A DNA stretch of 21,855 nucleotides from positions 135,047 through 156,901 of the IMG/VR virus record IMGVR_UViG_3300031555_005217. One strand, 5' to 3'. Positions 5,540 to 21,444 of this stretch are shown piece by piece. The notes under the pieces are model-generated. The model was given only the letters and a program-made list of their open reading frames with translations, had not been told where the DNA came from and did no database searches. The stretch is from a virus. Taxonomy: Duplodnaviria > Heunggongvirae > Uroviricota > Caudoviricetes. Both the position numbers and the translations under genes were made by a program. Position 1 is the first letter of the stretch. Every line of letters begins with the position of its first letter.

Positions 5540-5540
5540 A

Positions 5541-6344: not shown

Positions 6345-6507
6345 ACTCTTATTCTCCTATTTATCTTTACACATATATTTTATAATATTTTAAATAAACT
6401 TTCAATCGCATATAAAAATTATTAATAGTTCTTAAAAGCTTATTTAAAGCGGCTATATAACAGTTTAGATTTAATAGAATATAAATTATAAATAAGAAAT
6501 AAAAAAA

Positions 6508-6530
6508 AAAGGATTTAAAAGAAATCCTTT
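6508..6530 (-). terminator. Rho-independent terminator
   Basis: AAAGGATTT/AAATCCTTT inverted repeat followed by a long T-run on the minus strand, directly after the stop at 6531. Confidence 0.8.
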
Positions 6531-7310: not shown

Positions 7311-7365
7311 CTCCTTTATTTACATTTATATTATATATTAGATTTAGCTTTTTTACTACACCAAA

Positions 7366-7650
7366 TTATGAAACTTCTCCTGAAAGTGATTCTTCTAAAA
7401 ACTCTTCTTTAGCTTCTTCATTCATTTTATACTTGATAGTCTGCTCTATTAAATCTAACTTCTTCCCAATTGTCATGGTGGTTTCTTGTTTAAGTTGTCT
7501 ATCTCAATATTCTTCAAAGCTATTAATTTCTTTTAGTAACATTAATTTGATATAAGAAATTCCCAAATTTTTATTCTCAGGATCTAGCTTCTCACAATAG
7601 TTATAAGCTTGTTCTAATCCATTTAATTTTCCTTTATAGAATTCATTCAT
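7366..7650 (-). CDS. hypothetical protein, 94 aa, one in-frame TGA (read as Trp)
   Basis: Missing from the ORF track. RBS AAGGAGG, ATG 7650, TGA at 7504-7506, then 45 further open codons to TAA at 7366: MNEFYKGKLNG...INSFEEY[W]DRQLKQ...ESLSGEVS*. Confidence 0.75.
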
Positions 7651-7697
7651 ATAAACTTATAACCTCCTTATATGGTATTTTATTATATTTAATATAC

Positions 7698-7740
7698 AAT
7701 AAAAAGCTCCCTTTAGAATAAAGCAAGGGAGCTTTTTATT
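7698..7740 (-). terminator. strong Rho-independent terminator
   Basis: 16-bp perfect inverted repeat 7698-7713/7725-7740 (GCTCCCTT core) with T-runs. Confidence 0.8.
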
Positions 7741-7796
7741 TTGAAACGTGTGTTTAGGAGGTAACTAATATTTCAAGAAGTATTTTTCTACTTCAA
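7698..7796 (-). ncRNA. candidate ~100-nt sRNA with anti-SD tract
   Basis: Lies between an ATTGTATA promoter-like motif (7802-7809) and the terminator. 5' hairpin GAAGTA/TACTTC (7777-7794), ACCUCCU at 7756-7762, no ORF. Confidence 0.45.
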
Positions 7797-7808
7797 TATA
7801 ATATACAA

Positions 7809-8009
7809 TTAATTTTTATTATTTTCTAATCAGTTCATATAATAGTTTCTAATTTTATTTAATTCTTCTTTTTTCTCTCTTAATTCTGTTTTAGATAAAG
7901 AAGAGGTATTATTCTTTATCAGTCCATCTACCTTATCTATTTCATCTATTAAGTGTAATGAAAAATTATCTACTCCTAATAGCTTACCTAATTCCATATA
8001 TGTACTCAT
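7809..8009 (-). CDS. hypothetical protein, 66 aa if the TGA at 7830-7832 is read through (59 aa otherwise)
   Basis: Missing from the ORF track. RBS AAAGGAG, ATG 8009: MSTYMELGKLLGVDNF...RNYYMN[W]LENNKN*. Confidence 0.7.
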
Positions 8010-8027
8010 AACTATTTCTCCTTTATT

Positions 8028-8261
8028 TTATTTGATACTAATTACATAACAACTAATAATTTGTTTTGCTAAACGATAATCATCTCTATAATTAACTGAT
8101 TTAATTTCACGATTTAATAATCTTTCAGGTAATGAAGTTGGGGATAAATCCTCATGATCAATGTATACTATACCTTGAACCCAACCACCATCTTCAACTA
8201 CCGCTAATGTACCTGCATCAGTTTCATGTAATAAGAAATCCTTTAAAGTTTGTTTTCTCAT
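8028..8261 (-). CDS. hypothetical protein, 77 aa (start revised to MRKQTL)
   Basis: GGAGG RBS precedes the ATG at 8261. The track start at 8306 lies inside the upstream gene. Confidence 0.78.
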   Translation of the reverse strand: MRKQTLKDFLLHETDAGTLAVVEDGGWVQGIVYIDHEDLSPTSLPERLLNREIKSVNYRDDYRLAKQIISCYVISIK

Positions 8262-8278
8262 AATATAATTTCCTCCAA

Positions 8279-8608
8279 TTAATCTAAATATGGTTGGTAA
8301 TCCCATCTACCGAAAGTGGCATACTCAGGATAGTCTGTTTCTCTTCCTCGTGTTCCCCAACATCCAAATTTAGGTTTCCAAAATAATTGTTTAATTCTAC
8401 CATTCTTATCTTCTACAATATCATCAGCTAATGTATCGTAATATCTTGGACCATTAAATATCAAATTACATTCTTGAATAAATATACAATTTGTATTTAC
8501 TCCTATAACAGTGTAAGGATGACGAACCATATCAATCATACCATTACCTGTTCTTTGAGATAAGTAAAGTCTATCTCCTACCTTTGGATAACTCTTTTCA
8601 TTTCCCAT
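8279..8608 (-). CDS. phage hypothetical protein, 109 aa
   Basis: RBS AGGTAGGT, class I promoter at 8634-8678, TAA stop. Confidence 0.85.
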   Translation of the reverse strand: MGNEKSYPKVGDRLYLSQRTGNGMIDMVRHPYTVIGVNTNCIFIQECNLIFNGPRYYDTLADDIVEDKNGRIKQLFWKPKFGCWGTRGRETDYPEYATFGRWDYQPYLD

Positions 8609-8633
8609 ATTATACTACCTACCTTTTTAATTA

Positions 8634-8678
8634 TTTACAAATTAATTATAGAATATATTATATTTAAATTCAAAACCA
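8634..8678 (-). promoter_or_regulatory. class I early promoter
   Basis: TGG-TT-TTGAAT-N17-TATAAT-N5-TGTAAA. Confidence 0.8.
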
Positions 8679-8683
8679 TCAAG

Positions 8684-9001
8684 TTAGTTTTCTATATAAC
8701 AATAGTCAATAACCCATTCTGGAAGATAACGTTCTAATCTAACACAAGGATCTGTATCGTCTAGACTACTAGCAAATATAGAACTTCCTATCATATCTGG
8801 AAGAAAATACTTATTATCACTTCTAAAAGAATAAGATCTTGATTCGAGAGGATATTCTTTACCCCATGATTCAACATCTTTGAATACTACAACGCACTTT
8901 AAAGGATTTGAATCTCCATATTGATTCTTAATATTATTTTGAGAGTTATGCTCACTGATTTTCTCAGTAAGCTCTCTCCATGTTAATTTGTTAATTTGCA
9001 T
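8684..9001 (-). CDS. phage hypothetical protein, 105 aa
   Basis: Starts 5 nt after the upstream stop. The YPLESRSY...SDNKYF...SIF..SLD.TD.CVRL pattern is recalled from Bacillota phage proteins. Confidence 0.85.
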   Translation of the reverse strand: MQINKLTWRELTEKISEHNSQNNIKNQYGDSNPLKCVVVFKDVESWGKEYPLESRSYSFRSDNKYFLPDMIGSSIFASSLDDTDPCVRLERYLPEWVIDYCYIEN

Positions 9002-9006
9002 AATTA

Positions 9007-9210
9007 TTACTCCTGTATTAAATGATTAATTAATGAAGAAGGTGTAAATCTAATAGTGTAAATATCTCCGCTATGGAAATCTTTTCTTACTAGATTATTA
9101 AATGTAATGTGAAGAACAGGTTCGAAATGTTCTCTTTCTTCGATTTGTGTAATTGTGCCTTTGCCGAATTTGCTGTGATTAATTTGTTGATTTAATGTAA
9201 ATGTTTGCAT
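9007..9210 (-). CDS. 67-aa Tudor-like protein resembling the PcrA/UvrD C-terminal domain
   Basis: RBS AAAGGAG. Motif QINHSKFGKGTITQI...LHITF. Confidence 0.75.
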   Translation of the reverse strand: MQTFTLNQQINHSKFGKGTITQIEEREHFEPVLHITFNNLVRKDFHSGDIYTIRFTPSSLINHLIQE

Positions 9211-9234
9211 ATTATATATTCTCCTTTACCTTTA

Positions 9235-9279
9235 TTTACACCTTAATTATATAATAAATAAATATAACTTTCAAAACCA
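9235..9279 (-). promoter_or_regulatory. class I early promoter
   Basis: TGG-TT-TTGAAA-N17-TATAAT-N5-TGTAAA. Confidence 0.85.
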
Positions 9280-9291
9280 AATAAAAAGAAA

Positions 9292-9314
9292 AGTCTAGAA
9301 ATAATTTCTAGACT
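9292..9314 (-). terminator. Rho-independent terminator
   Basis: AGTCTAGAAAT/ATTTCTAGACT inverted repeat overlapping the TAG stop of 9308..9694. Confidence 0.65.
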
Positions 9315-9694
9315 AAAAAGAAATACTTTATAGGATCAAAATCAGGTGCAGCATATTCTCCAACATCTTCTGTTAAAATATCTACTATTGAAACATTAGT
9401 TTCTCCAGCACCTAATAGAATCTTTCCTGAATTAAACTTAACCATGAAATGTCCATCTTTGATTCCATACCCAATAGTAGATCCATTTTCATATCCTAAA
9501 TCTTCTAACTTACTACAAGCTATATATTCTATATCTTCAAATAAATTTAATATAACTTGTAATGCTTCTGATTGAGAAAACTTTCCTGTTAATTTTTTTA
9601 ATTGATTCCCATTTAAACTATCTACAATCTCTTTAGATAAAATATCAAAATCAGAAGAAGTTATGAATTGAAGTTTCTTAATTTGTAGTTTCAT
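9308..9694 (-). CDS. hypothetical protein, 128 aa
   Basis: RBS GGGAGGG, TAG stop inside the terminator. Confidence 0.8.
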   Translation of the reverse strand: MKLQIKKLQFITSSDFDILSKEIVDSLNGNQLKKLTGKFSQSEALQVILNLFEDIEYIACSKLEDLGYENGSTIGYGIKDGHFMVKFNSGKILLGAGETNVSIVDILTEDVGEYAAPDFDPIKYFFLV

Positions 9695-9726
9695 ATAATT
9701 TTAACCCTCCCTTATATGGTTGTTTA

Positions 9727-10053
9727 TTATTTCGACTTATCATTTATTTTAGCATTATTGTCTTCACACCATTTAAAACAATCTTGTCTTTTATTAAACA
9801 AGAGTAACTTCCTATTATCCTTTTGAACATATAAATGAGTAGCTTTATCTATAACTGCCCAATAATATTTACTTTTATGACAAGGCATATATCTATTATT
9901 TATAGTATTTTGTTTCTCTATAAGATTATCTATAACTCCTTTACATTCTTTTATTGAAGCATATTTAAAATCATTTATAGCTTCTTTAAAAGCGTTTTGA
10001 ATTATATATTGAGTATTATGTTTAAGTATATTATATCCTTTGTATTTACTCAC
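9727..10053 (-). CDS. hypothetical basic protein, 108 aa
   Basis: GTG start with RBS AGAGGT, TAA stop. Confidence 0.75.
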   Translation of the reverse strand: MSKYKGYNILKHNTQYIIQNAFKEAINDFKYASIKECKGVIDNLIEKQNTINNRYMPCHKSKYYWAVIDKATHLYVQKDNRKLLLFNKRQDCFKWCEDNNAKINDKSK

Positions 10054-10110
10054 ATTAACACCTCTTTAATATTATTTATATATTCAATTTAATATATAAC
10101 TAAAAAAGAA

Positions 10111-10134
10111 AAAGTATCTTATTAAAGATACTTT
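10111..10134 (-). terminator. Rho-independent terminator
   Basis: AAAGTATCTT/AAGATACTTT inverted repeat plus T-run. Confidence 0.7.
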
Positions 10135-10288
10135 AATCTTTATCATACTTTTCTGATAAATAATAATAGTCAGCTAAATCAGCTTTATCTAAAGAACATA
10201 CTTTACTTTTTCTTTTTAAATATGTTAAGAAAGCTTTTTCTTTTTTAACAATTAAATATTCTTGTTCTTCTTCTTTTAAATGGTCTAT
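10133..10288 (-). CDS. possible 51-aa protein with non-canonical (ATA) start
   Basis: The open frame exactly fills the gap between the TAG at 10285 and the terminator: IDHLKEEEQEYLIVKKEKAFLTYLKRKSKVCSLDKADLADYYYLSEKYDKD*. No ATG/GTG/TTG start. Confidence 0.4.
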   Translation of the reverse strand: MDHLKEEEQEYLIVKKEKAFLTYLKRKSKVCSLDKADLADYYYLSEKYDKD

Positions 10289-10482
10289 AAGTTAACTAAC
10301 TCTTCTGATTCTTTAACTTCTTCTTCATCATCTGTATAGCAATTAAATCCATTTAATCTACACATGTCTTTAACATCGTCTTCTGACATATAACTTAAAC
10401 AAGCTCTAGCTACATCTTCCCAAGTTACAAAACCTTCTTCTACTGAACATATTAAATTATTAGTTACTTCTCTTGCTTCCAT
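10285..10482 (-). CDS. phage hypothetical protein, 65 aa
   Basis: RBS AAGGAAGG, class I promoter. The ...V..CLSYMSEDDV.DM..N pattern is recalled from phages. Confidence 0.8.
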   Translation of the reverse strand: MEAREVTNNLICSVEEGFVTWEDVARACLSYMSEDDVKDMCRLNGFNCYTDDEEEVKESEELVNL

Positions 10483-10506
10483 AATTAATTACCTTCCTTA
10501 TTTTTC

Positions 10507-10551
10507 TTTACACCTATATTATATAATAAAAAAAGATGATTTTCAAAACCA
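10507..10551 (-). promoter_or_regulatory. class I early promoter
   Basis: TGG-TT-TTGAAA-N17-TATAAT-N5-TGTAAA. Confidence 0.85.
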
Positions 10552-10552
10552 T

Positions 10553-11203
10553 CTAATCTAAATTATAATTTCCTTTTTTCACTTCAGCATCCCAATAAAT
10601 TGCCACTTCACATATTAATGACATTATTTTAGGGTCAATTGTACTATATGCTTTAGACCACCCACCACTCTTTGTAACATATCTTAATTGTGTTCCTTCA
10701 TTATTAGGAAGTAATTCAAGTGTATATTGTGGACTATCTTGCATTTCACCTGTACGATAAATTCTACCGAACTTAATTGTTCGTTTTACTTTTCTTTGCA
10801 TAACAATTCCAGCTTCCTCTAAAGCTTTTAAAGCTGCTTCAGGTTGAGTTAATATCTTATACTTTGAAGATTTAATTTTATCTGTATGAAGAACTATAGG
10901 TTTTATACCATCTATTATTTTTAGATAGGTAGGCATACCAGCAACTAGAACAGTAATTCTTGTATCTTCCCATTTAAAATCATCTGCAGATAATGTCGGA
11001 TATTTATCTAACCACCATTTATTAACTCTATCAACCTCTTCTATTGTTAATGGTTTAGCTTTCTCATCTGCTAATGCGTCATAACCACAATCTTTTAAAT
11101 TGACATTACAATTCTTACTTTGGCTATTCCAAACCTTCTTATATTCCCAACAGAATATATTGTTATGAGCTTCAAATAAATCATCCTTATAATTTTTAAA
11201 CAT
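10553..11203 (-). CDS. hypothetical protein, 216 aa
   Basis: RBS AGGAGG, class I promoter at 11225-11270. Confidence 0.85.
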   Translation of the reverse strand: MFKNYKDDLFEAHNNIFCWEYKKVWNSQSKNCNVNLKDCGYDALADEKAKPLTIEEVDRVNKWWLDKYPTLSADDFKWEDTRITVLVAGMPTYLKIIDGIKPIVLHTDKIKSSKYKILTQPEAALKALEEAGIVMQRKVKRTIKFGRIYRTGEMQDSPQYTLELLPNNEGTQLRYVTKSGGWSKAYSTIDPKIMSLICEVAIYWDAEVKKGNYNLD

Positions 11204-11275
11204 AACTATTTCCTCCTATTTCTTTATCACGTTTATATTATATAATAAACTAAATTTAAATTAAACACCATTTAA

Positions 11276-11935
11276 TTATAATAATTTATTTAAAATATTT
11301 AAAGCATTCAAGAATGTATAGGAATCTTCCATATCATATTTGTAAGTGTTGTTGACAAAATGTCTTTTACTAGTTTTACTCTTACAAATAGTGTAAGCAG
11401 TTCTTTCTAGAATCTCATCTGACATCTCACTGTAGCAACGTAATGTATTTTCAGTTCTTTGAAGATTTTGTACATCATATTGAGATAAACTTAGAACTTT
11501 AACACCACAGTTATTAAACGCATTACAAAACTCATTATACTCACTGCTTCTCTTAGCCCTAATTTCCATCAGCTTATATAAGATATCTTCTCTAGGGATA
11601 TCAGGTAATACATCAAATAAGTGTTCAAACTCTTCGGAATACTTCTTTGCAGTATTAGCTAAATCCAACAAATCTTGTTCAGTTAATACATCTACATCTA
11701 CCCCATTTAATTTATCGAGTTCTCTATGAGAAGGTAACTTTGAATATTCTTCCCAATTTAAAGTTTTTGCTCCTATTCTATCTCCTCTACCAGACAAATA
11801 TAATCTATTACCTGAACGTAGGTAACTAAATACTATACCGTGAATTACATAACCTTTGAAGTAATTCCCATCATCAGCAAAATCATAAGATGAATTTCTT
11901 ACAAAACCATATTTACCTAAATTAATCTTACGCAT
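11276..11935 (-). CDS. hypothetical protein, 219 aa
   Basis: RBS GGAGGAGAG. Overlaps the upstream gene by 8 nt (translational coupling). Confidence 0.85.
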   Translation of the reverse strand: MRKINLGKYGFVRNSSYDFADDGNYFKGYVIHGIVFSYLRSGNRLYLSGRGDRIGAKTLNWEEYSKLPSHRELDKLNGVDVDVLTEQDLLDLANTAKKYSEEFEHLFDVLPDIPREDILYKLMEIRAKRSSEYNEFCNAFNNCGVKVLSLSQYDVQNLQRTENTLRCYSEMSDEILERTAYTICKSKTSKRHFVNNTYKYDMEDSYTFLNALNILNKLL

Positions 11936-12176
11936 ATTTACTCTCCTCCAATTCAGATATTTGTTCTATAAGTGCTTTCTTAGCTTCTTCGAATGTTGTA
12001 AATATCTCATCAGTATCTCTTTCATAATCCCCATATCTAGTATATACATGATAACTAATTGATGTTCTGTCAATTGAAATACTTCTAACCTCAACTTTTA
12101 TTATAGGGTCATATAAATTATCTCTATTTAAAATGTATACCTGTTGACCAAGATTAAATTCTGTTGTAATTTTCAT
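11928..12176 (-). CDS. hypothetical protein, 82 aa (small beta-barrel-like)
   Basis: RBS AAGGAGG. FNLGQQVYIL pattern typical of SH3-like phage proteins. Confidence 0.8.
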   Translation of the reverse strand: MKITTEFNLGQQVYILNRDNLYDPIIKVEVRSISIDRTSISYHVYTRYGDYERDTDEIFTTFEEAKKALIEQISELEESKYA

Positions 12177-12193
12177 AACTGTATTCCTCCTTA

Positions 12194-12238
12194 ATTACAC
12201 ATTAATTATAATATAAAAAGACATCTTAATCAAAACCA
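12194..12238 (-). promoter_or_regulatory. class I early promoter
   Basis: TGG-TT-TTGATT-N17-TATAAT-N5-TGTAAT. Confidence 0.8.
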
Positions 12239-12251
12239 AATAAAAAAAAAT

Positions 12252-12274
12252 AAAAGAGGTTTATAACCTCTTTT
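12252..12274 (-). terminator. Rho-independent terminator
   Basis: AAAAGAGGTT/AACCTCTTTT 10-bp inverted repeat plus T-run. Confidence 0.8.
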
Positions 12275-12488
12275 ATTTGTCAAGATCAATTATATCGATA
12301 CTTAATAATGAATATCCTAATTTTTCTACTTCATCTTGAATTTCATCATAAGCTTCATAAAAATCATCTGATCTATCTAAAATTTCATTTGCAATTCCTT
12401 GAATAGAAGTTTTAATTGATTCTCCTTGAGCTTCTTTAGTATCTACTACTCCAATAATTACTTCTTGATATTTAATTCCATATAACAT
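12273..12488 (-). CDS. hypothetical acidic protein, 71 aa
   Basis: RBS AAAGGAG, class I promoter at 12524-12557. Confidence 0.8.
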   Translation of the reverse strand: MLYGIKYQEVIIGVVDTKEAQGESIKTSIQGIANEILDRSDDFYEAYDEIQDEVEKLGYSLLSIDIIDLDK

Positions 12489-12563
12489 ATTTTTATATCT
12501 CCTTTTTATTTTATTTCAATTAAATTATATATTAAATATAGCTATAAATCAAATGCATTATAA

Positions 12564-13520
12564 TTAAAATAAGCTGCTTATTAGCTCTTTATTTTGTCTT
12601 AAATCATTTAATGTACTTTCGATATATTTATATAATTGAGGATTCTTTAAGCTCTTTAAATGATTCAATAATTTAATTCCTTCATTATCACTTAATTTAT
12701 AACACTTACAGAAATGATTTAACATAAATTCTTGATTTATAGAATTTAAATACTTAACCAATCTTTTAGGATCGAATGAAGTAGAATAATTATAACATTT
12801 CTCTTTAACTTTATTTCCATCTTCATCGAATACTTCAATGTAATTAGTACTTTTAGTTTCTTTAAAAGAATCTCCTAAAGCTATACCATCTATAATGATT
12901 GCTTCAATTTCTTTACCTGAAACTATTAAATCTTGAATTAAACTTCTTACAGGAGAAATAGAAGGACCATCTACATATAAACCAGCATATTGTAGAATTG
13001 AGTCTCCATTTTCTTCAATCTCTTTATCTAGTCTAATTGTTTGGTAATTACCTTTTCTAATTTGTTTATTAGTAGCTTGGTACTCTTTAGCTCTTCTAGC
13101 TCCAAGAAAGAAATTAATATTCTTGTCTGGAGCATTCTCATCTAATAGATAATAGTTAGGATTTGGAATTCTATTTCCATTTTCATCTAATTTCCATTCT
13201 ACAAACTTTCCATTTTTAACTACAGCTTTATATTCAAATCTCCAACCTCTGTAGTAGAAAGCATCACTTAAAGAATCATGTAACCAATTAACAAAATCTA
13301 ATGGATCTAAATTTAAACTTAAAGATTCTTTTTGCCATTTAAATATCCATCCCCAATAACGTAACATTAAAGCTCCCCAATAACGACTACGTAATAATTC
13401 ATTTCCTGCTTCTTCAGCATCACAATAACCATTTGCTAAATCTGTTTTTGAAATTGCCTTATAATCTCCTAATAATTCGGCTTCTTTTTCAAAACATCTT
13501 CTTACATCATTTAATGTCAT
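12564..13520 (-). CDS. 318-aa protein, putative divergent phage sigma-factor-like protein
   Basis: Helical pattern reminiscent of sigma70 regions 2-3: ALMLRYWGWIFK...D.LDFVNWLHDSLSDAF...ARRAKEYQATNKQIRKGNYQTIRLDKEIEENGD (cf. SLD...DGD). The CDS is solid; the function is tentative. Confidence 0.55.
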   Translation of the reverse strand: MTLNDVRRCFEKEAELLGDYKAISKTDLANGYCDAEEAGNELLRSRYWGALMLRYWGWIFKWQKESLSLNLDPLDFVNWLHDSLSDAFYYRGWRFEYKAVVKNGKFVEWKLDENGNRIPNPNYYLLDENAPDKNINFFLGARRAKEYQATNKQIRKGNYQTIRLDKEIEENGDSILQYAGLYVDGPSISPVRSLIQDLIVSGKEIEAIIIDGIALGDSFKETKSTNYIEVFDEDGNKVKEKCYNYSTSFDPKRLVKYLNSINQEFMLNHFCKCYKLSDNEGIKLLNHLKSLKNPQLYKYIESTLNDLRQNKELISSLF

Positions 13521-13610
13521 TTTCCCTTATTTAATTAACTTTTTCATACTCTGCAAACTATTTAATGTTACTACAAATTATAAAATAATTAATTATCTCC
13601 TTTCCTACAT

Positions 13611-13655
13611 CTTACACCTTAATTATAGAATAATTAAGTGGGTTATTCAAACCCA
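13611..13655 (-). promoter_or_regulatory. class I early promoter, -35 in the loop of the upstream terminator
   Basis: TGG-GT-TTGAAT-N17-TATAAT-N5-TGTAAG. Confidence 0.8.
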
Positions 13656-13660
13656 CTTAA
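13633..13660 (-). terminator. Rho-independent terminator overlapping the next promoter
   Basis: TTAAGTGGGTT/AACCCACTTAA 11-bp inverted repeat. Confidence 0.65.
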
Positions 13661-13674
13661 ATTCTTTATTTTAA

Positions 13675-14412
13675 TTAATTGTTATAATACTTGTCAATGA
13701 ATTCATTATATTCATCTAAAGTAAGCTTTCTTCCCCATTGAATATCTGAAATCTTAATATGAGTTTCAGTTCTACTTAATGTAGGATTTGTACCTCTAGC
13801 TAAGCAACGTTGATACTTTTTCTTTAAATATCTCTTTGGATTATCTTCAGCTAATTCAGCATCTTCACTACCTAATTCAATTTCAATTTCACTAGGTTGA
13901 TCATCAAGTGCTTTAATATCATTTGCTAATCTATTAAGTCCTCTTTCAGTCATCTTATCTACTGCTAATCCACTTAAAACTAATTCATTAGCTTCAGTTG
14001 ATATTAAATCCATATTTAAAGTATTTGCTAATTCATTACCTTTTAAATCAAATGCAACCTTATCTTCAGCAGCTACTAAAATATCTCCTCTAACTACCTT
14101 AACCTTATTAATTGAAGCTTCCTTTAAATTAATTGCAACTTCAAACCACTTCATTACAGGCTTACCCCAATAAGCTCTACTAAAATGTCTTTGAAGAATT
14201 TGATCTTCTAAATAAGACTTATTAGTAATCATATTAAGACCTATTAAATTGCCACCTGAATATAAACCAACTAATTGATCATTTTGAACTAATTCAATAA
14301 TCTCTTCTAATGTTCCTTTATAAGGATTTTCAATGCTTTCCTCTAGTTGATTTAAATCTAACTTCTCAACTTCTACTACTTCTCTTCCTAAAACTTCTGC
14401 AAACTTATTCAT
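13675..14412 (-). CDS. hypothetical protein, 245 aa
   Basis: RBS AGGAGG, two tandem class I promoters upstream (14456-14501 and 14551-14595). Confidence 0.88.
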   Translation of the reverse strand: MNKFAEVLGREVVEVEKLDLNQLEESIENPYKGTLEEIIELVQNDQLVGLYSGGNLIGLNMITNKSYLEDQILQRHFSRAYWGKPVMKWFEVAINLKEASINKVKVVRGDILVAAEDKVAFDLKGNELANTLNMDLISTEANELVLSGLAVDKMTERGLNRLANDIKALDDQPSEIEIELGSEDAELAEDNPKRYLKKKYQRCLARGTNPTLSRTETHIKISDIQWGRKLTLDEYNEFIDKYYNN

Positions 14413-14579
14413 ATACTTTCCTCCTAATTTTTAATATTTTTTGCTTTGAATAACTTTTACATTTATTATTATAAGATATTTTTAAGTACTTTACTAACCC
14501 ATATAAATGTTTATTTTTTTTTTAATTAGGTTAAAGTAAAGTACTTAAAACTTACATCTATATTATAACTTACTTTTTA

Positions 14580-15002
14580 TTAAATTTCTACACCAATACT
14601 TAAAATATTTTCAAATTTAATATTATAAACATCAGGGTTTCCACTCTTTAATTTCTTTTCTCCAATAATTCCAATAGCATCTTCTTTAGTGATTTGAACA
14701 CCATCTAAATAATACGTTGATTTATTATTGCTTGAATAACTTGACGCTACTCTTAAATAATAATTACCTTTGTGTTCAATGACCAAATTTTCTAAACCAG
14801 GTACCCAACTTCCCCAAGGTAGACTTTGAATAGGTGTTTGGCGATCTTTATTGATTGCCATGTTAGCATAATTAACACCTAATCTAATTACTAAATCAGA
14901 TTCTTTTGTAACTCCTTTACCATAATCTTTTACTTTCTTTAATGAAATGTAACGTCCTTTCTTAACGTTTGCTAATGCTAATAAGATTTGATCTTTTGTC
15001 AT
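14580..15002 (-). CDS. phage hypothetical protein, 140 aa (LPWGxW...IEHKG.YYLR type)
   Basis: RBS AGGAGG, class I promoter at 15028-15072. Motif recalled from large phages. Confidence 0.88.
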   Translation of the reverse strand: MTKDQILLALANVKKGRYISLKKVKDYGKGVTKESDLVIRLGVNYANMAINKDRQTPIQSLPWGSWVPGLENLVIEHKGNYYLRVASSYSSNNKSTYYLDGVQITKEDAIGIIGEKKLKSGNPDVYNIKFENILSIGVEI

Positions 15003-15079
15003 ATTAATTATCCTCCTGTTTATCTTATTTACACCTTAATTATAATATAAATGGTTAATGTTTTCTAACCCAAATACAA

Positions 15080-15194
15080 AAATTTATTTAGCTCTTTAAA
15101 TCGATTTTAATTTTAAACATGAACAAATACTTATGATTTAAATTTAAATTGATTATAAAAGCTTTTAGATATCAAATATGAGCTAAATAAATTT
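15080..15194. repeat. 115-bp element bounded by 15-bp perfect inverted repeats
   Basis: AAATTTATTTAGCTC (15080-15094) / GAGCTAAATAAATTT (15180-15194). Confidence 0.7.
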
Positions 15195-15198
15195 AATC

Positions 15199-15438
15199 TT
15201 AATCATTTTCCCAAGTATCTGTTGCAGAATTATAGATATAAAGCTCTAAATCTTCATGGTTTTCATTCATAATTGCAATTGCAGAATAACTAGATGAAAG
15301 ACATGGTTGTGATATTATATTTTGAACTCTTGCTCTAGCATCTTCTAAATTTGAATAAAACTCTCTACATGAAGTAAAACTATCTCCAAATTCATTTCTA
15401 TAATCTACTTTAAAAATTTCTAAATCTTCATGTTTCAT
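15199..15438 (-). CDS. hypothetical protein, 79 aa
   Basis: RBS AAGGATGG, class I promoter at 15481-15526. Confidence 0.78.
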   Translation of the reverse strand: MKHEDLEIFKVDYRNEFGDSFTSCREFYSNLEDARARVQNIISQPCLSSSYSAIAIMNENHEDLELYIYNSATDTWEND

Positions 15439-15480
15439 ATTTTAATTACCATCCTTTTATGTTATATATTGTTTTTAAAA

Positions 15481-15526
15481 TTTACATCTTTTATTATAAA
15501 GGAATTAAATAAAATATTCAAAACCA
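15481..15526 (-). promoter_or_regulatory. class I early promoter (first of the early block)
   Basis: TGG-TT-TTGAAT-N17-TATAAT-N6-TGTAAA. Confidence 0.82.
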
Positions 15527-16130
15527 TAAATCAAACTACTTTTTGGGAGGATATATATGTAATATATATTCTTCTTTTTAATTAACCTTTAATATATACG
15601 TTTAATATTAACCCTTAATTAAAGTAATTAAGCCTATATATTATCGCTTAATATAATTATCTCTTTACAAGAGATAAACAAAAAACAACAATTATATTAT
15701 ATATTTCATATATAATATAATTACTATTTTTTGTCGACCCAAGCAAGGTGATAGGTAAGGAACAAGATATTTACTTTAGTGAAAGATTAAATCTATAATT
15801 GCAAACATCACGCAGCTCATATGCAATATTATTACACATCATCTGCAAGATGAGATGATATAGTATTGAAAATTATTTAAGATAATATCAATTATTAAAT
15901 AATCTATTTTTAATTATGATATAATATAATCTTAAGTATTAAGTTATATCATCTTAATTAATATATCAGCTCATAATTAAAAATCTCTCTTTAAATTAAT
16001 TTTATTTTAAAGAATGAGTATTTATTAAAGACTTACTTTAAAGTTTGTTATTTAAGCAATTTGATATCAAATATGAGCTATTATTTTATAATCCTTTTAA
16101 AATTTATTATTTAATTATATTATAAAATAA
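15527..16130. other. long noncoding AT-rich region with palindromes and repeated ATGAGCT sites (origin- or regulatory-like)
   Basis: No credible ORF even with TGA as sense. 14-bp inverted repeat near 15690-15722. 18-bp direct repeat at 15168-15185 and 16063-16080. Confidence 0.45.
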
Positions 16131-16131
16131 A

Positions 16132-16155
16132 AAATGGACTTTTTCAAGTCCATTT
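16132..16155 (-). terminator. Rho-independent terminator ending the late block
   Basis: AAATGGACTT/AAGTCCATTT inverted repeat plus T-run at the stop of the 626-aa gene. Confidence 0.78.
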
Positions 16156-18034
16156 ATTCTATATTTAAAACTTTTTTAAATGTCTTAAAAATAGCTCCAT
16201 CTATTTTATAATTTCCGTATTTAAATAAGTTTTCTACTTCATCTTTCTTTAAAGAACGTAAATAAGTTTCGAATTCAGTATTATTTTTCAAACCAGCTTT
16301 TTTAGCTTTTTCAACAAATTCTTCTTTCTTATATTCTTTTGTTCCTTCCCATGAATCTACTGTTTCACTAGCATAAGTAATATCTTCTTCAGACTCTTCT
16401 TCAGCTTCTTCAGCTTCTTCTGTAGAGTCTGTAGACTCTTCTTCAGCTTCTTCTTTTGGAACTTCTTCTCCGAACTCTACGACATCATCTATTTCAATTC
16501 TAACGATAACTTTTTCTTCAGCTTCAGTATCTATTTCTATTTCTTCTATTCTTAATGACTGTACTTTTAGAATAACTTTATCATCTTTTAATTCAAAGTA
16601 TTTACTTAATTCAGTTTTTACTTTAGATTTTTTTAAAGAATTGATTAAGATGTCTGCCTCATCATCTTCGGAAATTCCCATGGTAAGAACTGAATTCTTT
16701 TCTTTAGCTGTTATTGTAAAAGGATTTTTATTCTCATAATTATCTTCTTCATTTATCTCAAGTCCGAAACTTGCTTGCTTACCATTTAAGGTACATACTA
16801 AGTTTATTGATCCTGTTTCTTCAGGATCTTTTTTAGGTTGACCAGTTGTATTACTTAAGAAGTTAAATAATTTTTCTACTTCTTCAATCTTTCTTACTGT
16901 AACTCCTTCAGTACTTAAAGTGATTTTAGATAAAGCAATATCTGTCTCTCCATTAAGAACTTGGTTTAAATCTATATCACTAGAACTTGGTTTTAAAATA
17001 ATATTTCTAGCTAATCTAATAGTTTTATAATCTTGAGCTAACTTTCTCATTACAGAGTTTTTAATCTTATCAGCATTTGTGTTTCTTAACTTATTAAATT
17101 TATTTAACATTTCTTCTACATCTTTTATTGTAGTATAAGTTTCATAATAAGAAGGATGTTTTACTAATTCTAAAATTAATTTATTAGAAGCTTCATCACT
17201 TACTAATTCATTCCATTTAAATAGTCCTTCTGCAATATGTTGTTTTAAAAAGTTAAATCTCTTTTCTCCAGTTGAATCTAAAGTGAATACCTTTCTTAAC
17301 TCTTCTGTTGACTGACTCCAATTTATTAAATGATATAAACTATTTTCTTTTGTACATAACCCATTATTATTTTTTATAAATGAAGTTATGTCTCTATTGA
17401 AAGTTTGTAAAACTGGAAAATCTTGACTTAAGTCTTCATCCAAACCTAAACTCTTATTTGTAAATTTTAATCAGAAACATTTTAAAATATAATTTGAAAC
17501 ATTTGTTTGTCTAGCTAAGTCTTGTTGTAATTGAAGATCTTTTATATTCCCATATTTTACAAATGTTTTCCCATCTTTAATTTGTAAAGCTTTTAGCAAT
17601 CCATTGTTGATCATTTTAACATCTTCATCTTTGAATATAGAAGCTTTATTAGGATCTTCTGTAAAAGAAATATCTTTTGGTTGTATGGTTGTTGTAGGAC
17701 CTCAAAATATAGCTTTTCTTTTTTGTCTATCACCTGTTGTTTCTCCAGTCATTACAACATACACTGGTTTATTAGAATCAGTAGTTGTAAACTCATCTCC
17801 TTCATGAGAAACTGTTTTATCTTTAGCAATTGCTATTTTAGCATACTTCACGTTTGGATCCGACTTAATTTCAGTTAATGATTTATTGTACAAATCATTT
17901 CATTTTTTAAAATCATCGGAGCTTATATCTGTTATGCTTCCAGTTAAAATTTTATTTTCTTGTAAATAAGTATCTAATTCACTTACAGTTTTAAAGTTAT
18001 TTTGAGCTGTAGCTTCATTTAATATTTTATTCAT
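16154..18034 (-). CDS. 626-aa protein with three in-frame TGA codons (read as Trp), probable virion/late protein
   Basis: ATG 18034 with GGAGAG RBS, overlapping the upstream stop. I checked the frame: the only interruptions are TGA at 17900-17902, 17702-17704 and 17471-17473. Joins track fragments 17702..17893 and 16154..17443. Starts MNKILNEA, with a Glu-rich linker near the C-terminus. Confidence 0.88.
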
Positions 18035-18536
18035 CTTCGTCTCTCCAATCAGTTAGTAAATTAAAATCAGTAGTTTTGAAATCATGTAATTGACTTGGTT
18101 CAAATTCATTTTCTAATACTGGTCCGATCTCACATGTTATAGATGCTGGATAAATTGAAATAGTAGACATCCTAACAACTTTAAATACACGTCCTTCAGA
18201 ATTATCTAAAGCACTAGGAATTATAAATAAACATCCTACTTGAAGTTTGTCTAAATCATAAGGGACATGAATGATCGGATTTCCTTGAAGAAGTTCAGCA
18301 TTTCATCTTAACTTCTTCATTGTTTGTTGTGTCGGATGATCATCATAGATACATCCGACAATTTCTGGTGGATTATATAAAGTATCTAACTCTCCATAAG
18401 AATCATACTGTTTTGAATCTTTAGGAGATCTATAAATGACATTAAGTCCAAGGAGCTTGGTCATCTGTTCAAACCAAGTCCTATGTAAACTAATGTCTTT
18501 CTTATTTAATAAAAGTCCTGTGTCTGTATTTTTCAT
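18027..18536 (-). CDS. 169-aa protein with one in-frame TGA, possible head-closure/neck protein (T4 gp14-like pattern)
   Basis: Track ORF 18303..18536 ends at TGA, but the frame stays open 91 more codons to TAA at 18027: ...TMKKLR[W]NAELLQGNPIIHVPYDLDKLQVGCLFIIP...RVFKVVRM... The motif order resembles gp14 (G.ECYYVPR...KEGDLIYFP...LFEI). Function is inferred. Confidence 0.85.
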
Positions 18537-18537
18537 G

Positions 18538-21444
18538 TTATAATGTTATTCCGAACACATCATCATTTAAATCATTAAATACTTTATAATCACACTCTGT
18601 AGTATAATTTTCATCTAACTTATTTGTTGGACATAATGTAAATGAAATAATCTTTTCTAGATCTTCTTCTACTAAAATTCCTTTAACTGAAATAATATCT
18701 TCTTCTAAGTTAACTTCTGAAGTTTTATATAATCTTGTTTTATCATCTTCAATTGAATCAAAGTATTCATTAATTAAATTATCAAACTCATTTCTGTCTA
18801 ATACTAAATATGATTCTAATAAATTTGGTTCTACATAATCTATTTGACCATTTTTAACTGCTAATAAGAATTCTCTAGAATTAATTTTATTATCTATTGC
18901 TTGAGGAGTAAATTGTTCTGAGTCTAAAGCTTTTAACGCCATAGATAACTCTCTTGCTCTATCTCTTCTAACATTGAATGTATCATGTACATATTGACTA
19001 AATCCATCATATGCTTTATATAAATATGAAGTAAGTTGGTTAAGAGGAGTAGATTCTAATTCATTAACATCTAAATCTCCTGAAATTAATCTTAGATCCT
19101 GAATAATATCTGAAACTACAAATCTCGGATCAACTTCAATATTATAATGATTTTCAATTGAATCACAAATATCTTTTGAAATTCTGCAAATCTTTTTTAC
19201 AATTTCTTTATCTTCATCTGAAATTGTTTTAGTAACATTTGAAGAAGTTTTAACTAAAGAATTACTTTCAAGGATAACTGTGTATCTATATCCTTCTTTA
19301 TCTGATCTTTGAACCTTATATGGTTGTTTATTATTTCTAGCTTCTGTAATTCTCTCAGATAATTCTTTTCTATCTTTACATTCAAATATAGTTTCTACTT
19401 CTTTTTTACCTAATTTGTCGGAAACTAAAAAATGTTCCTCTGAAATTACTTCTTGTTCTTTATTTTGATCTAATTCTTCAAGTACATCGTCTCCAGCACG
19501 TGAAGGATCATGATCTGGATTAAACCAAATTTCACTAGCTTCCATATCTGAAATCGGATTTCCTTCTTCATCAATCTCTGTAACTTGTTTTTCTACAGAA
19601 TATCCATTATTATCAATACAAGCATTCTTACAGCTTTCTAAATCAGTATATGTAGTAGAAGTACCATAATTACCTTCTTCATCAAACCAATAAACATATT
19701 CAACTCTTAATAATGGTTCATAGTCTTCATCAATTTTATCGTTCATTTCTTCTTCGAAAATATCATTATCAAGTAATTCATGTCCATCAAAATCATCTTC
19801 TAAAGCAGCTAAAACATCATTAGCTAATTCTTCTGAATCATAATCAGAGACAATATCAAACCAAATATCTTCATGATTATCTTTATTATATTCATATCTA
19901 TATTTATTTATAAGATCATTTAAAAGATGATATTCATAATCTTCTTTAACTTCTTTTTTATCTTTGAATACTACATTTGATTCTTGAAGTTTCATTCCGA
20001 GTTTGTTTAAAGCTTCATCTACATCATCTAAGTAACCAGTAACATCTTTGAATAATCTAACTAATACTTCATCTTTAAGAGGTAATATTAAGGAATTAAA
20101 TACATGATCTAACTCTTCACCATTCTTGATATTGTTTGTTAAAACATTTTCCCATGTACCTGGTCGGAAGATTTTGTAAACTTCTCCACCATTCTTGTTA
20201 ATAATTTCATGAATTAAAAGATCCTCATCACTTAGATCCTCTTTAGCTTCATTTAATACTTTAATATTTGAATTGTTTAAAATTTTGATTTCAATATATT
20301 TTGGAGTCTCTATACCAACTACTGTATAGTGTTGAACAAAATTAATAACATTATTAATAGATCCTGCAGCTAATAAATCTGTACTTGCTACATCATAAAC
20401 TTCAACAAAGTCTTTATTAGTACAATATCTGCCAACTAAATAATTGAAGTATCTGTTCGGATCATTTTCAGACTTATCAACATTAACAACTAACTTATCC
20501 CCACATGTTTCAAAAGTAACTAAAGTAGAATCTAAAAGATCTTTATTTAAATCATCATAATCACCTTTAAATAAAATATTATTATTAAAAGAGTCTTTAA
20601 TGATAATTTCTTTTAATTTACTTGGTTGGATAAAAACATCTTTAATATATTCTCCAAGAGTATATTCTTTAATATCTTCAATTTCTTCAATTATAATTTT
20701 ATCTTCTTCATAATCTAGATCCACATTTTCAAGAACATCTTCTTTGATATCTTCATGAATTGGTGTATATTCTTCTGTATCGTCCCATTCTACATCATCT
20801 TGATCATAAACAGTTCCGAAAGATTCACTTAAGTTATCTTCTTCTGTATCATCTTCAAGATCTGTTTCCATGTAATCTTGTTCTTCATCTTCATCAAAAA
20901 GGTTGTCGGAAGATTCTTGTTCCTCCTCTTGATCCTCTTCAGTATCTTCAAGAGTATCCTCAGGTTCAATTTCATCTTCTACATCATTTTCAATAGAAGG
21001 CTCATCATCAACCTTCTCATCATTATCAATTTCAGGTTCTTCTTCAACCATTTTACCTACTTGCCCAATTAAAGAGTAACCAGTAAAATCAGAATGACAA
21101 TAAGGACATTCTTCTCCAATATTGTATAATTCATTGTCAGACTCAGAAGACTCTAAATTTTCAAGATCAATAAAGCGAGTAGCCTTACAAGCATTACATT
21201 GTATAATAGCTTGACCAATATACCCTTTATTGTCCTTAAGGTGTTCTAGAGAGTCAGCATCTACATCAATTACTTGAAGTTCAGTTTCTTTTTGTTGACT
21301 ATCAATTTCTGATTTATATTCTTGAGCTTGTTCTACTTCTTCTTTATCATTTAAAGAAAAAGATTTGCTTTCATATAAATCATCTAAATCTTCTAAAGCC
21401 ATAAAAGCTTCTATAATGGATAAACCATTCTTATTATTTTCCAT
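18538..21444 (-). CDS. 968-aa highly acidic multidomain protein with N-terminal Zn-ribbon, probable internal virion protein
   Basis: RBS AAAGGAG. CNAC...CPYC, long D/E-rich linker, two ~55-aa tandem modules, many [LI]xE-[AS] motifs. All five Trp codons are TGG. Confidence 0.88.
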   Translation of the reverse strand: MENNKNGLSIIEAFMALEDLDDLYESKSFSLNDKEEVEQAQEYKSEIDSQQKETELQVIDVDADSLEHLKDNKGYIGQAIIQCNACKATRFIDLENLESSESDNELYNIGEECPYCHSDFTGYSLIGQVGKMVEEEPEIDNDEKVDDEPSIENDVEDEIEPEDTLEDTEEDQEEEQESSDNLFDEDEEQDYMETDLEDDTEEDNLSESFGTVYDQDDVEWDDTEEYTPIHEDIKEDVLENVDLDYEEDKIIIEEIEDIKEYTLGEYIKDVFIQPSKLKEIIIKDSFNNNILFKGDYDDLNKDLLDSTLVTFETCGDKLVVNVDKSENDPNRYFNYLVGRYCTNKDFVEVYDVASTDLLAAGSINNVINFVQHYTVVGIETPKYIEIKILNNSNIKVLNEAKEDLSDEDLLIHEIINKNGGEVYKIFRPGTWENVLTNNIKNGEELDHVFNSLILPLKDEVLVRLFKDVTGYLDDVDEALNKLGMKLQESNVVFKDKKEVKEDYEYHLLNDLINKYRYEYNKDNHEDIWFDIVSDYDSEELANDVLAALEDDFDGHELLDNDIFEEEMNDKIDEDYEPLLRVEYVYWFDEEGNYGTSTTYTDLESCKNACIDNNGYSVEKQVTEIDEEGNPISDMEASEIWFNPDHDPSRAGDDVLEELDQNKEQEVISEEHFLVSDKLGKKEVETIFECKDRKELSERITEARNNKQPYKVQRSDKEGYRYTVILESNSLVKTSSNVTKTISDEDKEIVKKICRISKDICDSIENHYNIEVDPRFVVSDIIQDLRLISGDLDVNELESTPLNQLTSYLYKAYDGFSQYVHDTFNVRRDRARELSMALKALDSEQFTPQAIDNKINSREFLLAVKNGQIDYVEPNLLESYLVLDRNEFDNLINEYFDSIEDDKTRLYKTSEVNLEEDIISVKGILVEEDLEKIISFTLCPTNKLDENYTTECDYKVFNDLNDDVFGITL

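What the first reader, a model, noticed from the sequence alone, without database searches (positions are those of the whole stretch)
7366..18536. TGA is reassigned to a sense codon (probably Trp, genetic code 4) and is concentrated in late genes
Seen: all 27 accepted standard-code genes end in TAA (24) or TAG (3). Every TGA met in a real reading frame is followed by continued open coding: 18303, 17900, 17702, 17471, 7504 and probably 7830. Readthrough turns fragments and gaps into a gap-free operon (968 aa, 1-nt gap, 169 aa, 8-nt overlap, 626 aa). Contexts (KK*NDL, IF*GP, CF*LK, EEY*DRQL, N*LE) suit Trp better than Gly. Usage is skewed: 4 TGA vs 5 TGG in 16154-18536, but 1-2 TGA vs about 60 TGG in the early block by hand count. 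Known: stop-recoded phages often restrict recoded codons to structural/lysis genes, whereas AT-rich code-4 Mollicutes generally favour TGA over TGG. Inference: either a phage-controlled code switch gating late genes in a code-11 host, or recent adaptation to a code-4 host.
Basis: partly seen in the sequence, partly recalled or inferred. Interest (0 to 1): 0.88.

Follow-up and report, generated by a model that had tools for sequence, protein, structure and literature searches.

The report
Phage reads TGA as tryptophan
This large AT-rich gut or rumen phage reads the stop codon TGA as tryptophan, mostly in late virion genes, and carries its own unusual UGA-reading tryptophan tRNA; the recoding is real but of a kind already described for gut phages.

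Summary
All six TGA coordinates, the 968/169/626-aa operon geometry and the codon counts are correct.

TGA means Trp. At 46 TGA sites with homologues, the aligned residues are W 50, F 10, Y 9 and G 1. This mirrors the TGG control. W78 of the 169-aa protein is invariant in 28 homologues.

The recoding is genome-wide. The window is the end of a 156.9-kb IMG/VR phage contig rated 88% complete. Coding density rises from 0.75 to 0.89, with 170 in-frame TGA against 380 TGG.

Use is strongly skewed. TGA is 70% of Trp codons in the tail and recombination block. It is 0-12% in replication and small-gene blocks and 6% in the window's early block. Other A/G codon pairs are 80-94% A-ending everywhere.

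The contig carries no TrpRS and no release factor. It does carry a 96-nt tRNA(UCA) outside the window. That tRNA has a Trp-type acceptor stem and an extra arm copying the CCA anticodon hairpin.

A phage-driven code switch in a standard-code Bacillota host is the best reading. This is a new member of a known kind (Borges et al.). Earlier notes of this scan, on other windows of this genome, already reported the recoding and the odd tRNA.

The parts
18027..18536 (-). 169-aa gene with one in-frame TGA (18303-18305, W78); predicted virion neck or stopper (head-completion) protein
   Evidence: W78 is invariant in 28 homologues (A1). The fold model (pLDDT 68) matches the phage P1 connector, the lambda neck and T4 gp14. 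The exact protein was found on 22 contigs.
16154..18034 (-). 626-aa gene with three in-frame TGAs (17900, 17702, 17471 = W45, W111, W188); function unknown
   Evidence: W45 and W188 align to W in two homologues, and W111 aligns to K. In the relative L025 those codons are TGG, AAA and TGG. The 8-nt overlap with the upstream gene is conserved in L025.
18538..21444 (-). 968-aa first gene of the operon; 0 TGA and 5 TGG; acidic N-terminal region; function unknown
   Evidence: Searches gave no family. It is syntenic with 997- and 999-aa genes in relatives.
21533..21540 (-). GCTAAATT late-promoter-like motif, 95 nt upstream of the 968-aa gene's ORF start
   Evidence: It is the only copy in the window. 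Genome-wide there are 25 copies, and 16 lie within 110 nt upstream of a same-strand start against 2.0 expected.
16132..16155 (-). Terminator-like hairpin directly after the 626-aa gene, overlapped by a strong sigma-70-like promoter (16147-16119)
7366..7650 (-). 94-aa gene with in-frame TGA at 7504-7506 (W49); lies in the early block but behind an ATTGTATA motif
   Evidence: The relative L025 keeps the TGA at the same codon. The 38 codons after it have pN/pS 0.19, against 0.30 before it. The motif is shown.
7809..8009 (-). 66-aa gene (59 aa if TGA stops) with TGA at 7830-7832; read-through is not settled
   Evidence: L025 has TGA at the same codon, followed by 5 codons of weak likeness.
2800..16131 (-). 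Block of small genes, three tRNA genes and sigma-70-like promoters that almost avoids TGA
   Evidence: TGA share of Trp codons is 0.06 of 67. All 11-of-12 promoter matches on the minus strand lie in this block.

Best explanation
The window is the end of a roughly 180-kb virulent myovirus genome. The contig held is 156.9 kb and rated 88% complete; its head genes appear to be missing.

Shown:
- UGA is translated as tryptophan.
- In-frame TGAs sit at conserved Trp positions, and reading frames stay under purifying selection after them.
- No excess of TGA is seen at gene ends.
- The phage carries one tRNA with anticodon UCA at genome 101157-101252, minus strand, 33.8 kb before the window. It has a tRNA-Trp-type acceptor stem (AGGGGCU) and discriminator G73.
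- The contig holds no TrpRS and no release factor.

Inferred:
- The host uses the standard code.
- Early genes, which have sigma-70-like promoters and almost only TGG, are translated by unmodified host machinery.
- The suppressor tRNA sits behind an ATTGTATA motif that also precedes other tRNAs and replication genes.
- Once that tRNA accumulates it competes with host RF2. TGA-bearing genes then yield full-length protein. These are tail, neck and recombination genes and homing endonucleases, many behind a GCTAAATT late-type motif.
- TGA therefore acts as a timing gate, and as a barrier to expression outside an infected cell.

More speculative: the tRNA's extra arm is a covarying 5-bp stem with a loop holding UCCAA, the same loop as a real tRNA-Trp anticodon arm. 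It may present the CCA identity element to the host TrpRS, so that a UCA-anticodon tRNA is still charged with Trp.
For: Trp identity:
- All 4 TGAs of the helicase align to TGG-Trp in IMG/VR relatives.
- W78 of the 169-aa protein is invariant in 28 homologues.
- 2 of the 3 TGAs in the 626-aa protein align to W.
- Over 46 TGA sites the aligned residues are W 50, F 10, Y 9 and G 1. The TGG control gives W 117, Y 15 and F 13.

Reading frames:
- Coding density rises from 0.750 to 0.889.
- pN/pS after the TGA at 7504 is 0.19.
- 7 TGAs lie within the last 10 codons of ORFs, against 8.3 expected.

Not sequencing error: the stretch with the four operon TGAs (window 8026-21728) is 99.99-100% identical in three other samples.

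Machinery:
- The tRNA(UCA) is a standard tRNA by Rfam (58.9 bits) and not tRNA-Sec.
- No PF00579 (TrpRS) or PF00472 (RF) hit, with positive controls ringing.

Skew:
- The TGA share of Trp codons is 0.70, 0.12, 0.00, 0.65 and 0.06 across blocks. Other A/G codon pairs stay at 0.80-0.94 A-ending.
- 33% of genes carry a TGA. This falls within the 26-71% reported for recoded phages of standard-code hosts, against about 90% for phages matching a recoded host (Borges et al.).
- Genes just behind GCTAAATT have TGA:TGG of 27:19, against 143:361 elsewhere.
- ATTGTATA lies 42 nt upstream of the suppressor tRNA.

Host:
- The helicase of relative L008 ends in TGA, and its region is 95% coding under code 11.
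- Homologues of the neck gene lie on contigs binned with Clostridiales, Lachnospiraceae, Bacillales and Acholeplasmatales MAGs.

Extra arm of the tRNA:
- In an unbiased census, 25 of 26 long-variable-arm tRNA(UCA) genes carry UCCAA in the arm's loop.
- All 5 pairs of the arm's helix show compensatory changes.
- The loop and its closing pairs match the ordinary phage tRNA-Trp(CCA).
Against: - No protein or RNA data exist, so translation of TGA as Trp is inferred from sequence alone.
- The host is unknown. MAG binning of AT-rich phage contigs is weak evidence.
- TGA is not absent from genes needed before late transcription. The helicase has 4 and the DNA polymerase 1. The switch must therefore act by middle times, or low-level read-through must suffice.
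- The promoter classes are motif inferences without transcript data.
- The 968-aa gene behind the late-like motif has 0 TGA.
- In-frame TGAs show no special +4 context.
- Many phages with the two-arm tRNA also carry an ordinary tRNA-Trp(CCA). This neither requires nor excludes the decoy idea.
- The geometry of a variable-arm mimic reaching the TrpRS anticodon-binding domain is untested.
Confidence: 0.78

Rival explanations
1. The host itself uses code 4, for example a Mycoplasmatales or Entomoplasmatales mollicute. The phage is then simply adapted, or recently adapting, to its host's code, with no phage-driven switch.
For: The genome is 26% GC. TGA = Trp is the mollicute code. One relative's contig is binned with an Acholeplasmatales MAG. 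Homing endonucleases are almost purely TGA.
Against: - TGA is 31% of Trp codons overall, and 0-12% in early and replication blocks. Every other A/G pair is 80-94% A-ending. A code-4 host would impose no such selection by gene class.
- The phage carries its own tRNA(UCA).
- Only 33% of genes use TGA.
- A relative ends its helicase gene in TGA.
- From general knowledge, Acholeplasmatales read UGA as stop, and myoviruses of about 180 kb are not known from code-4 mollicutes.
Confidence: 0.12
2. TGA encodes another residue: glycine (code 25, CPR hosts), or selenocysteine or cysteine as ARAGORN's 'tRNA-SeC' label suggests.
For: ARAGORN labels the 96-nt tRNA as SeC because of its UCA anticodon and long extra arm.
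Against: - Aligned residues at TGA sites are W 50, G 1 and C 4 of 106.
- Rfam scores the RNA as an ordinary tRNA. It has a 7/5 acceptor/T fold, a 4-bp D stem and a Trp-type acceptor.
- There are 170 sites.
Confidence: 0.02
3. The TGAs are real stops, so the fragments are pseudogenes, assembly errors or split genes.
For: Under code 11 the fragments are open reading frames of 59-429 aa. For the 66-aa gene the TGA at 7830 may truly be the stop.
Against: - The four operon TGAs recur in near-identical (99.99-100%) assemblies from three other samples.
- Full-length homologues lack the breaks.
- Purifying selection continues after a TGA.
- Coding density gains 14 points.
Confidence: 0.01

Closest known systems
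TGA-recoded (code 4) 'Agate', 'Jade' and 'Sapphire' gut phages of Firmicutes (Borges et al., bioRxiv 10.1101/2021.08.26.457843)
   Same: These are large, low-GC phages from animal guts. TGA aligns with Trp and they carry suppressor tRNA(UCA). Recoded codons concentrate in structural and lysis modules spread over the genome. Replication genes are variably recoded, and close relatives use the standard code.
   Different: Clade membership was not tested, because no terminase is available on this contig. This phage has no TrpRS or RF1 operon, unlike the two Jade genomes. The second anticodon-like arm of its suppressor tRNA is not mentioned in the passages I read.
TAG-to-Gln (code 15) crAss-like and Lak phages (Peters et al. 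2022, PMC9523058)
   Same: A phage suppressor tRNA imposes a stop-to-sense change on a standard-code host, with a late-gene bias. That case was validated by metaproteomics.
   Different: A different stop codon, amino acid, host phylum and phage lineage.
Mycoplasma/Spiroplasma genetic code 4
   Same: UGA is read as Trp by a tRNA-Trp(UCA) in an AT-rich genome.
   Different: There the whole cell is recoded, RF2 is lost and TGA outnumbers TGG. Here TGG dominates (380 against 170), and TGA use follows gene class.
Phage tRNA(UCA) species tested in E. coli extract and the AP1/HF2 TrpRS:tRNA pairs (bioRxiv 10.1101/2025.10.30.685624)
   Same: These are phage UCA tRNAs. All 13 analysed inserted Trp.
   Different: Those pairs come with a phage TrpRS, and none is present here. 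No extra anticodon-like arm is described in the text I read.

Membership tests
Alternatively coded (TGA->Trp) phage of a standard-code host | In-frame TGA in conserved genes aligns with Trp in homologues | tested here: met
   (W 50 of 106 aligned residues; Gly 1).
Alternatively coded (TGA->Trp) phage of a standard-code host | Marked gain in coding density and loss of gene fragmentation when TGA is read as sense | tested here: met
   0.750 to 0.889, against 0.764 for the TAG control.
Alternatively coded (TGA->Trp) phage of a standard-code host | Phage-encoded suppressor tRNA with anticodon UCA | tested here: met
   Genome 101157-101252, minus strand.
Alternatively coded (TGA->Trp) phage of a standard-code host | Recoded codon enriched in structural or late genes, with early genes readable in the standard code | tested here: met
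Alternatively coded (TGA->Trp) phage of a standard-code host | Host uses the standard code | tested here: inconclusive
   Indirect evidence only: the codon-usage skew, a relative's gene ending in TGA and MAG bin labels.
Alternatively coded (TGA->Trp) phage of a standard-code host | Peptides spanning TGA carry Trp | not testable with these tools
Code 25 phage (TGA->Gly) of Gracilibacteria or Absconditabacteria | TGA columns hold Gly, and about 90% of genes use TGA | tested here: not met
   Gly at 1 of 106 aligned residues. 33% of genes carry TGA.
Selenocysteine decoding | tRNA-Sec architecture (8/5 fold, 6-bp D stem) and rare UGA sites | tested here: not met
   Rfam assigns the tRNA family, the fold is 7/5 and the D stem has 4 bp. 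There are 170 sites.
Phage adapted to a code-4 host | TGA used at the mutational expectation in all gene classes | tested here: not met
   TGA share is 0.31 overall and 0.00-0.12 in early and replication blocks. Other A/G pairs are 0.80-0.94.

The most novel reading that the evidence does not exclude
The code switch may depend on a previously undescribed tRNA architecture: a tRNA-Trp(UCA) whose long variable arm is a faithful mimic of the tRNA-Trp CCA anticodon stem-loop. The UCCAA loop is invariant in 25 of 26 long-arm UCA tRNAs across several tRNA scaffolds, and the stem covaries fully. The mimic would serve as a displaced identity element that lets the host's own TrpRS charge an opal suppressor. 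That would explain how phages without a TrpRS impose code 4 on standard-code bacteria. An earlier follow-up in this scan (e1-1849610) reached the same reading, and I re-derived it independently. I found no description in the literature searched.
Probability: 0.4. Interest if true: 0.8.

Novelty: new member of a known kind. Interest (0 to 1): 0.42.

Why it matters
Practical use:
- The genome must be annotated with TGA as Trp. Under code 11 about a third of its genes come out fragmented or missed, including the tail, neck, recombination and helicase genes.

Biological interest:
- It is a clean, quantitative example of the stop-codon-recoding timing model. Within one genome the TGA share of Trp codons runs from 0% to 70% by gene class, while mutational pressure stays constant.
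- Three promoter-like motif classes line up with that gradient.

Wider interest:
- The suppressor tRNA's second, CCA-bearing arm, if it is a TrpRS identity decoy, would be a new solution to the problem of charging suppressor tRNAs.
- It would also be a ready-made design idea for opal-suppressor engineering.

Tried and rejected
Searches that gave nothing useful:
- PHROGs and Pfam on the five window proteins: no credible family.
- blastn of the operon against GenBank phages: no match.
- The search for related loci with the 968-aa protein: none.
- Gp23 (PF07068) in the contig: none, and that search also rang in none of the control genomes, so it is not informative. A relative's 208-kb contig has Gp23 about 10 kb upstream of the homologous operon, so the head module is probably beyond the contig end.
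- Atlas search of the 968-aa protein: nothing usable.

There was therefore no read-level or RNA evidence, and read laying went unused.

Analyses that failed or were uninformative:
- My first six-frame comparison with L025 was swamped by off-frame matches. I replaced it with gene-restricted comparisons.
- Local coding densities around tRNA genes in other contigs were too noisy to call their codes.
- The +4 base after in-frame TGA shows no bias (p = 0.29).

Readings considered and rejected:
- Sec, Gly or Cys decoding.
- Sequencing error.
- The idea that one tRNA serves both UGG and UGA. This is weakened because sister phages also keep an ordinary tRNA-Trp(CCA).
Full report
WHAT THE WINDOW IS. 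The window is the last 21.9 kb of a single 156,901-bp IMG/VR virus contig. The contig is 25.9% GC, classed linear, and rated 88% complete by CheckV. PHROG scans show a contractile-tailed phage.
- 1.4-21 kb: tail fibre, baseplate hub and tail tube genes.
- 21-38 kb: exonucleases, SbcC, SbcD and UvsX.
- 40-93 kb: DNA polymerase, DnaB-type helicase, SNF2-type helicase, ligase, NrdD, CCA-adding enzyme and Tgt.
- Elsewhere: RNA ligase, RtcB, a Ro-like protein and two homing endonucleases.

No Gp23-type capsid gene was found. That search also rang in none of the control genomes, so its blank says little on its own. In a relative's 208-kb contig Gp23 lies about 10 kb upstream of the homologous operon. 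The head module is therefore probably beyond the contig end. The last 127 nt of the window are an exact copy of 21566-21692, a k-mer-sized assembly artefact.

CHECK OF THE OBSERVATION. All six TGA positions, their amino-acid contexts, the operon geometry and the counts are correct. The geometry is 968 aa, a 1-nt gap, 169 aa, an 8-nt overlap and 626 aa. The counts are 4 TGA against 5 TGG in the two downstream genes, and about 2 against about 63 in the early block. The stretch 8026-21728, which holds the four operon TGAs, is 99.99-100% identical in contigs assembled from three other samples. The exact 169-aa code-4 protein is on record on 22 contigs. Sequencing error is excluded for those four TGAs; the two at 7504 and 7830 lie outside the stretch fetched from those contigs.

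WHICH AMINO ACID.
- The SNF2-type helicase has four in-frame TGAs. All four align to TGG-Trp in five or six IMG/VR relatives.
- In the window, W78 of the 169-aa protein is an invariant Trp in 28 homologues of 54-89% identity.
- W45 and W188 of the 626-aa protein align to Trp in both homologues, and W111 aligns to Lys.
- In the syntenic relative L025 (Logan SRR8820673, 26.6% GC) these four codons are TGG, TGG, AAA and TGG.
- A gene-restricted tally over all loci fetched covers 46 TGA sites. The aligned residues are W 50, F 10, Y 9, C 4 and G 1. The TGG control gives W 117, Y 15 and F 13.

TGA behaves like a Trp codon. Gly (code 25) and Sec or Cys are excluded.

THE TWO TGAs IN THE EARLY BLOCK. 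L025 carries TGA at the very same codons of the 94-aa and 66-aa genes. For the 94-aa gene, the 38 codons after the TGA have pN/pS 0.19, against 0.30 before it. Both genes end at corresponding TAA stops, and the other two frames are closed. The TGA is therefore read through in both phages, and the relative is itself a low-level TGA user. For the 66-aa gene only 5-6 weakly similar codons follow, so it stays open whether 7830 is sense or a true stop.

GENOME-WIDE PICTURE. Reading TGA as sense raises greedy-ORF coding density from 0.750 to 0.889. The TAG control gives 0.764. There are 170 in-frame TGAs against 380 TGGs in 230 ORFs. 33% of credible genes carry at least one TGA. TGAs are spread evenly along ORFs, with 7 in the last ten codons against 8.3 expected. 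There is thus no sign that TGA still ends genes.

The skew is large. The TGA share of Trp codons by block is:
- 0.70 at 1-38 kb (tail and recombination);
- 0.12 at 38-93 kb (replication and metabolism);
- 0.47 at 93-115 kb;
- 0.00 at 115-125.7 kb (36 Trp codons);
- 0.65 at 125.7-134 kb;
- 0.06 in the window's early block;
- 0.29 in the 968/169/626 operon.

The A-ending share of the Lys, Glu, Gln, Leu and Arg two-fold pairs stays at 0.80-0.94 overall (0.65-0.97 in single blocks). TGA is therefore selected against by gene class and approaches the mutational expectation only in virion-type modules. The two homing endonucleases are extreme, at 6:1 and 6:0.

IS THE WINDOW OPERON 'LATE'? The 169-aa protein has no Pfam or PHROG family. 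Its AlphaFold model (pLDDT 68) matches phage neck and stopper proteins almost exclusively. Examples are the P1 connector 9ums_B (E = 4e-5), the lambda neck 8k37_M and T4 gp14. Atlas feature neighbours include head-closure families. It is a structural gene.

A GCTAAATT motif lies 95 nt upstream of the 968-aa gene's ORF start. Genome-wide, 16 of the 25 copies lie within 110 nt upstream of a same-strand gene start, against 2.0 expected. The genes right behind them have TGA:TGG of 27:19, against 143:361 elsewhere (Fisher p = 5e-5). A terminator-like hairpin closes the operon at 16132-16155. The best sigma-70-like matches on the gene strand all lie in the 2.8-16.1 kb block.

MACHINERY. ARAGORN finds 26 tRNAs. 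There is no tRNA-Trp(CCA). One 96-nt tRNA has anticodon UCA, at genome 101157-101252 on the minus strand. Rfam scores it as an ordinary tRNA at 58.9 bits and not as tRNA-Sec. Its acceptor stem AGGGGCU with G73 is the tRNA-Trp type; that comparison rests on my recollection of the E. coli and B. subtilis tRNA-Trp sequences.

Its 'variable arm' is a 5-bp stem with loop CUCCAAA, a second anticodon-like arm bearing CCA. An ATTGTATA motif lies 42 nt upstream. That motif has 42 copies, mostly 28-50 nt before tRNAs and TGA-poor replication genes. The contig has no TrpRS and no class-I release factor, with positive controls ringing.

THE TWO-ARM tRNA IS A FAMILY. A pattern requiring both loops found 15 IMG/VR contigs of 39-136 kb. 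An unbiased pattern fixed only the UCA arm and the T loop. It found 38 loci: 12 with normal 4-6-nt variable loops and 26 with 23-32-nt inserts. In 25 of the 26 the insert is a hairpin whose loop contains UCCAA. These span at least three different acceptor and D-arm scaffolds.

On a 19-sequence alignment the five-helix structure pairs 96% of cells. The covariation score is 0.481 against 0.150 for shuffles (0 of 500 shuffles reach it). All five pairs of the extra arm show compensatory changes. The loop and its closing GGU/ACC pairs equal those of the ordinary tRNA-Trp(CCA) genes that several of these phages also carry.

An earlier follow-up of this scan (e1-1849610) described the same object and the same reading. 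I reached it before seeing that note. I found no description in the library searched. That is absence of evidence only.

HOST. The host is unknown. Evidence for a standard-code Bacillota host:
- the gene-class skew described above;
- the phage's own suppressor tRNA;
- a 54%-identical relative whose helicase gene ends in TGA, in a region 95% coding under code 11;
- best cultured-phage helicase hits in Bacillus, Clostridium and Streptococcus phages;
- neck-gene homologues on contigs binned with Clostridiales, Waltera (Lachnospiraceae), Bacillales and Acholeplasmatales MAGs.

Bin labels are weak evidence for AT-rich phage contigs.

COMPARISON WITH WHAT IS KNOWN. Borges et al. (bioRxiv 10.1101/2021.08.26.457843) describe large low-GC TGA-to-Trp phages (Agate, Jade, Sapphire) of Firmicutes. 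Those phages have suppressor tRNAs. Recoded codons sit in scattered structural and lysis modules, replication genes are variably recoded, and near relatives use the standard code. 26-71% of their genes are recoded, against about 90% when the host shares the code. This phage fits on every tested count, so the finding is a new member of a known kind. Other windows of this genome were already noted as code 4 by this scan (e1-5399189, e1-5399190).

VERDICT. TGA is enriched in, but not confined to, late genes. The decoding tRNA lies outside the window and there is no RF1. My odds are: TGA = Trp about 0.95; phage-driven switch in a standard-code host about 0.8; extra arm as a TrpRS identity decoy about 0.4.

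Noticed in passing
G000 genome 101157-101252 (-), 33.8 kb before the window; relatives L029-L067: A 96-nt tRNA-Trp(UCA) whose long variable arm copies the CCA anticodon hairpin. It belongs to a family of at least 25 phage tRNAs with UCCAA in the arm's loop and full covariation in the arm's stem. This was already reported by the earlier scan finding e1-1849610.
   Followed up: yes
window 21729-21855: The last 127 nt are an exact copy of 21566-21692. In three other assemblies the sequence continues differently. This is a k-mer-sized assembly artefact at the contig end, not biology.
   Followed up: yes
window 21533-21540 (-) and 24 further genome copies: GCTAAATT(A/T)(A/T)AT is a promoter-like motif. 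16 of the 25 copies lie within 110 nt upstream of gene starts (2.0 expected). It precedes tail genes, both homing endonucleases and the window operon.
   Followed up: partly
genome-wide; window copies at 1312-1319, 2454-2461, 4297-4304, 4712-4719, 7693-7700, 7802-7809 (as listed in note e1-5432972; each agrees with a genome coordinate): ATTGTATA is a second promoter-like class with 42 copies. Most lie 28-50 nt before tRNA genes (including the suppressor) and TGA-poor replication or metabolism genes. It is possibly a middle class.
   Followed up: partly
G000 genome 105112-106290 (-) and 127585-128442 (-): Two homing endonucleases (HNH-type and GIY-YIG-type) have the highest TGA use in the genome, at 6:1 and 6:0 TGA:TGG. 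Each has GCTAAATT 9 nt before its start.
   Followed up: partly
window 18027-18536 (-): The 169-aa protein belongs to a widespread family with no Pfam or PHROG model. It has 274 homologues of about 60% identity. Its predicted fold is that of phage neck or stopper proteins.
   Followed up: partly
L072 / L009 (contig of 123,552 bp): A 123.5-kb contig binned into an 'Acholeplasmatales' MAG (CAAGJD010000133.1, L072) carries a homologue of the neck gene. It has exactly the length of the IMG/VR phage contig IMGVR_UViG_3300045988_139151 (L009), found through the helicase. The two are probably the same phage contig, but only the lengths were compared.
   Followed up: no
L031-L041: Several phages with the two-arm tRNA(UCA) also encode an ordinary tRNA-Trp(CCA), often within a few hundred bases. 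This phage's 157 kb holds none.
   Followed up: partly
L053, L066: Two loci fetched for a UCA-like hairpin gain much more coding density with TAG as sense (0.46 to 0.77 and 0.41 to 0.76) than with TGA. They may be TAG-recoded phages.
   Followed up: no
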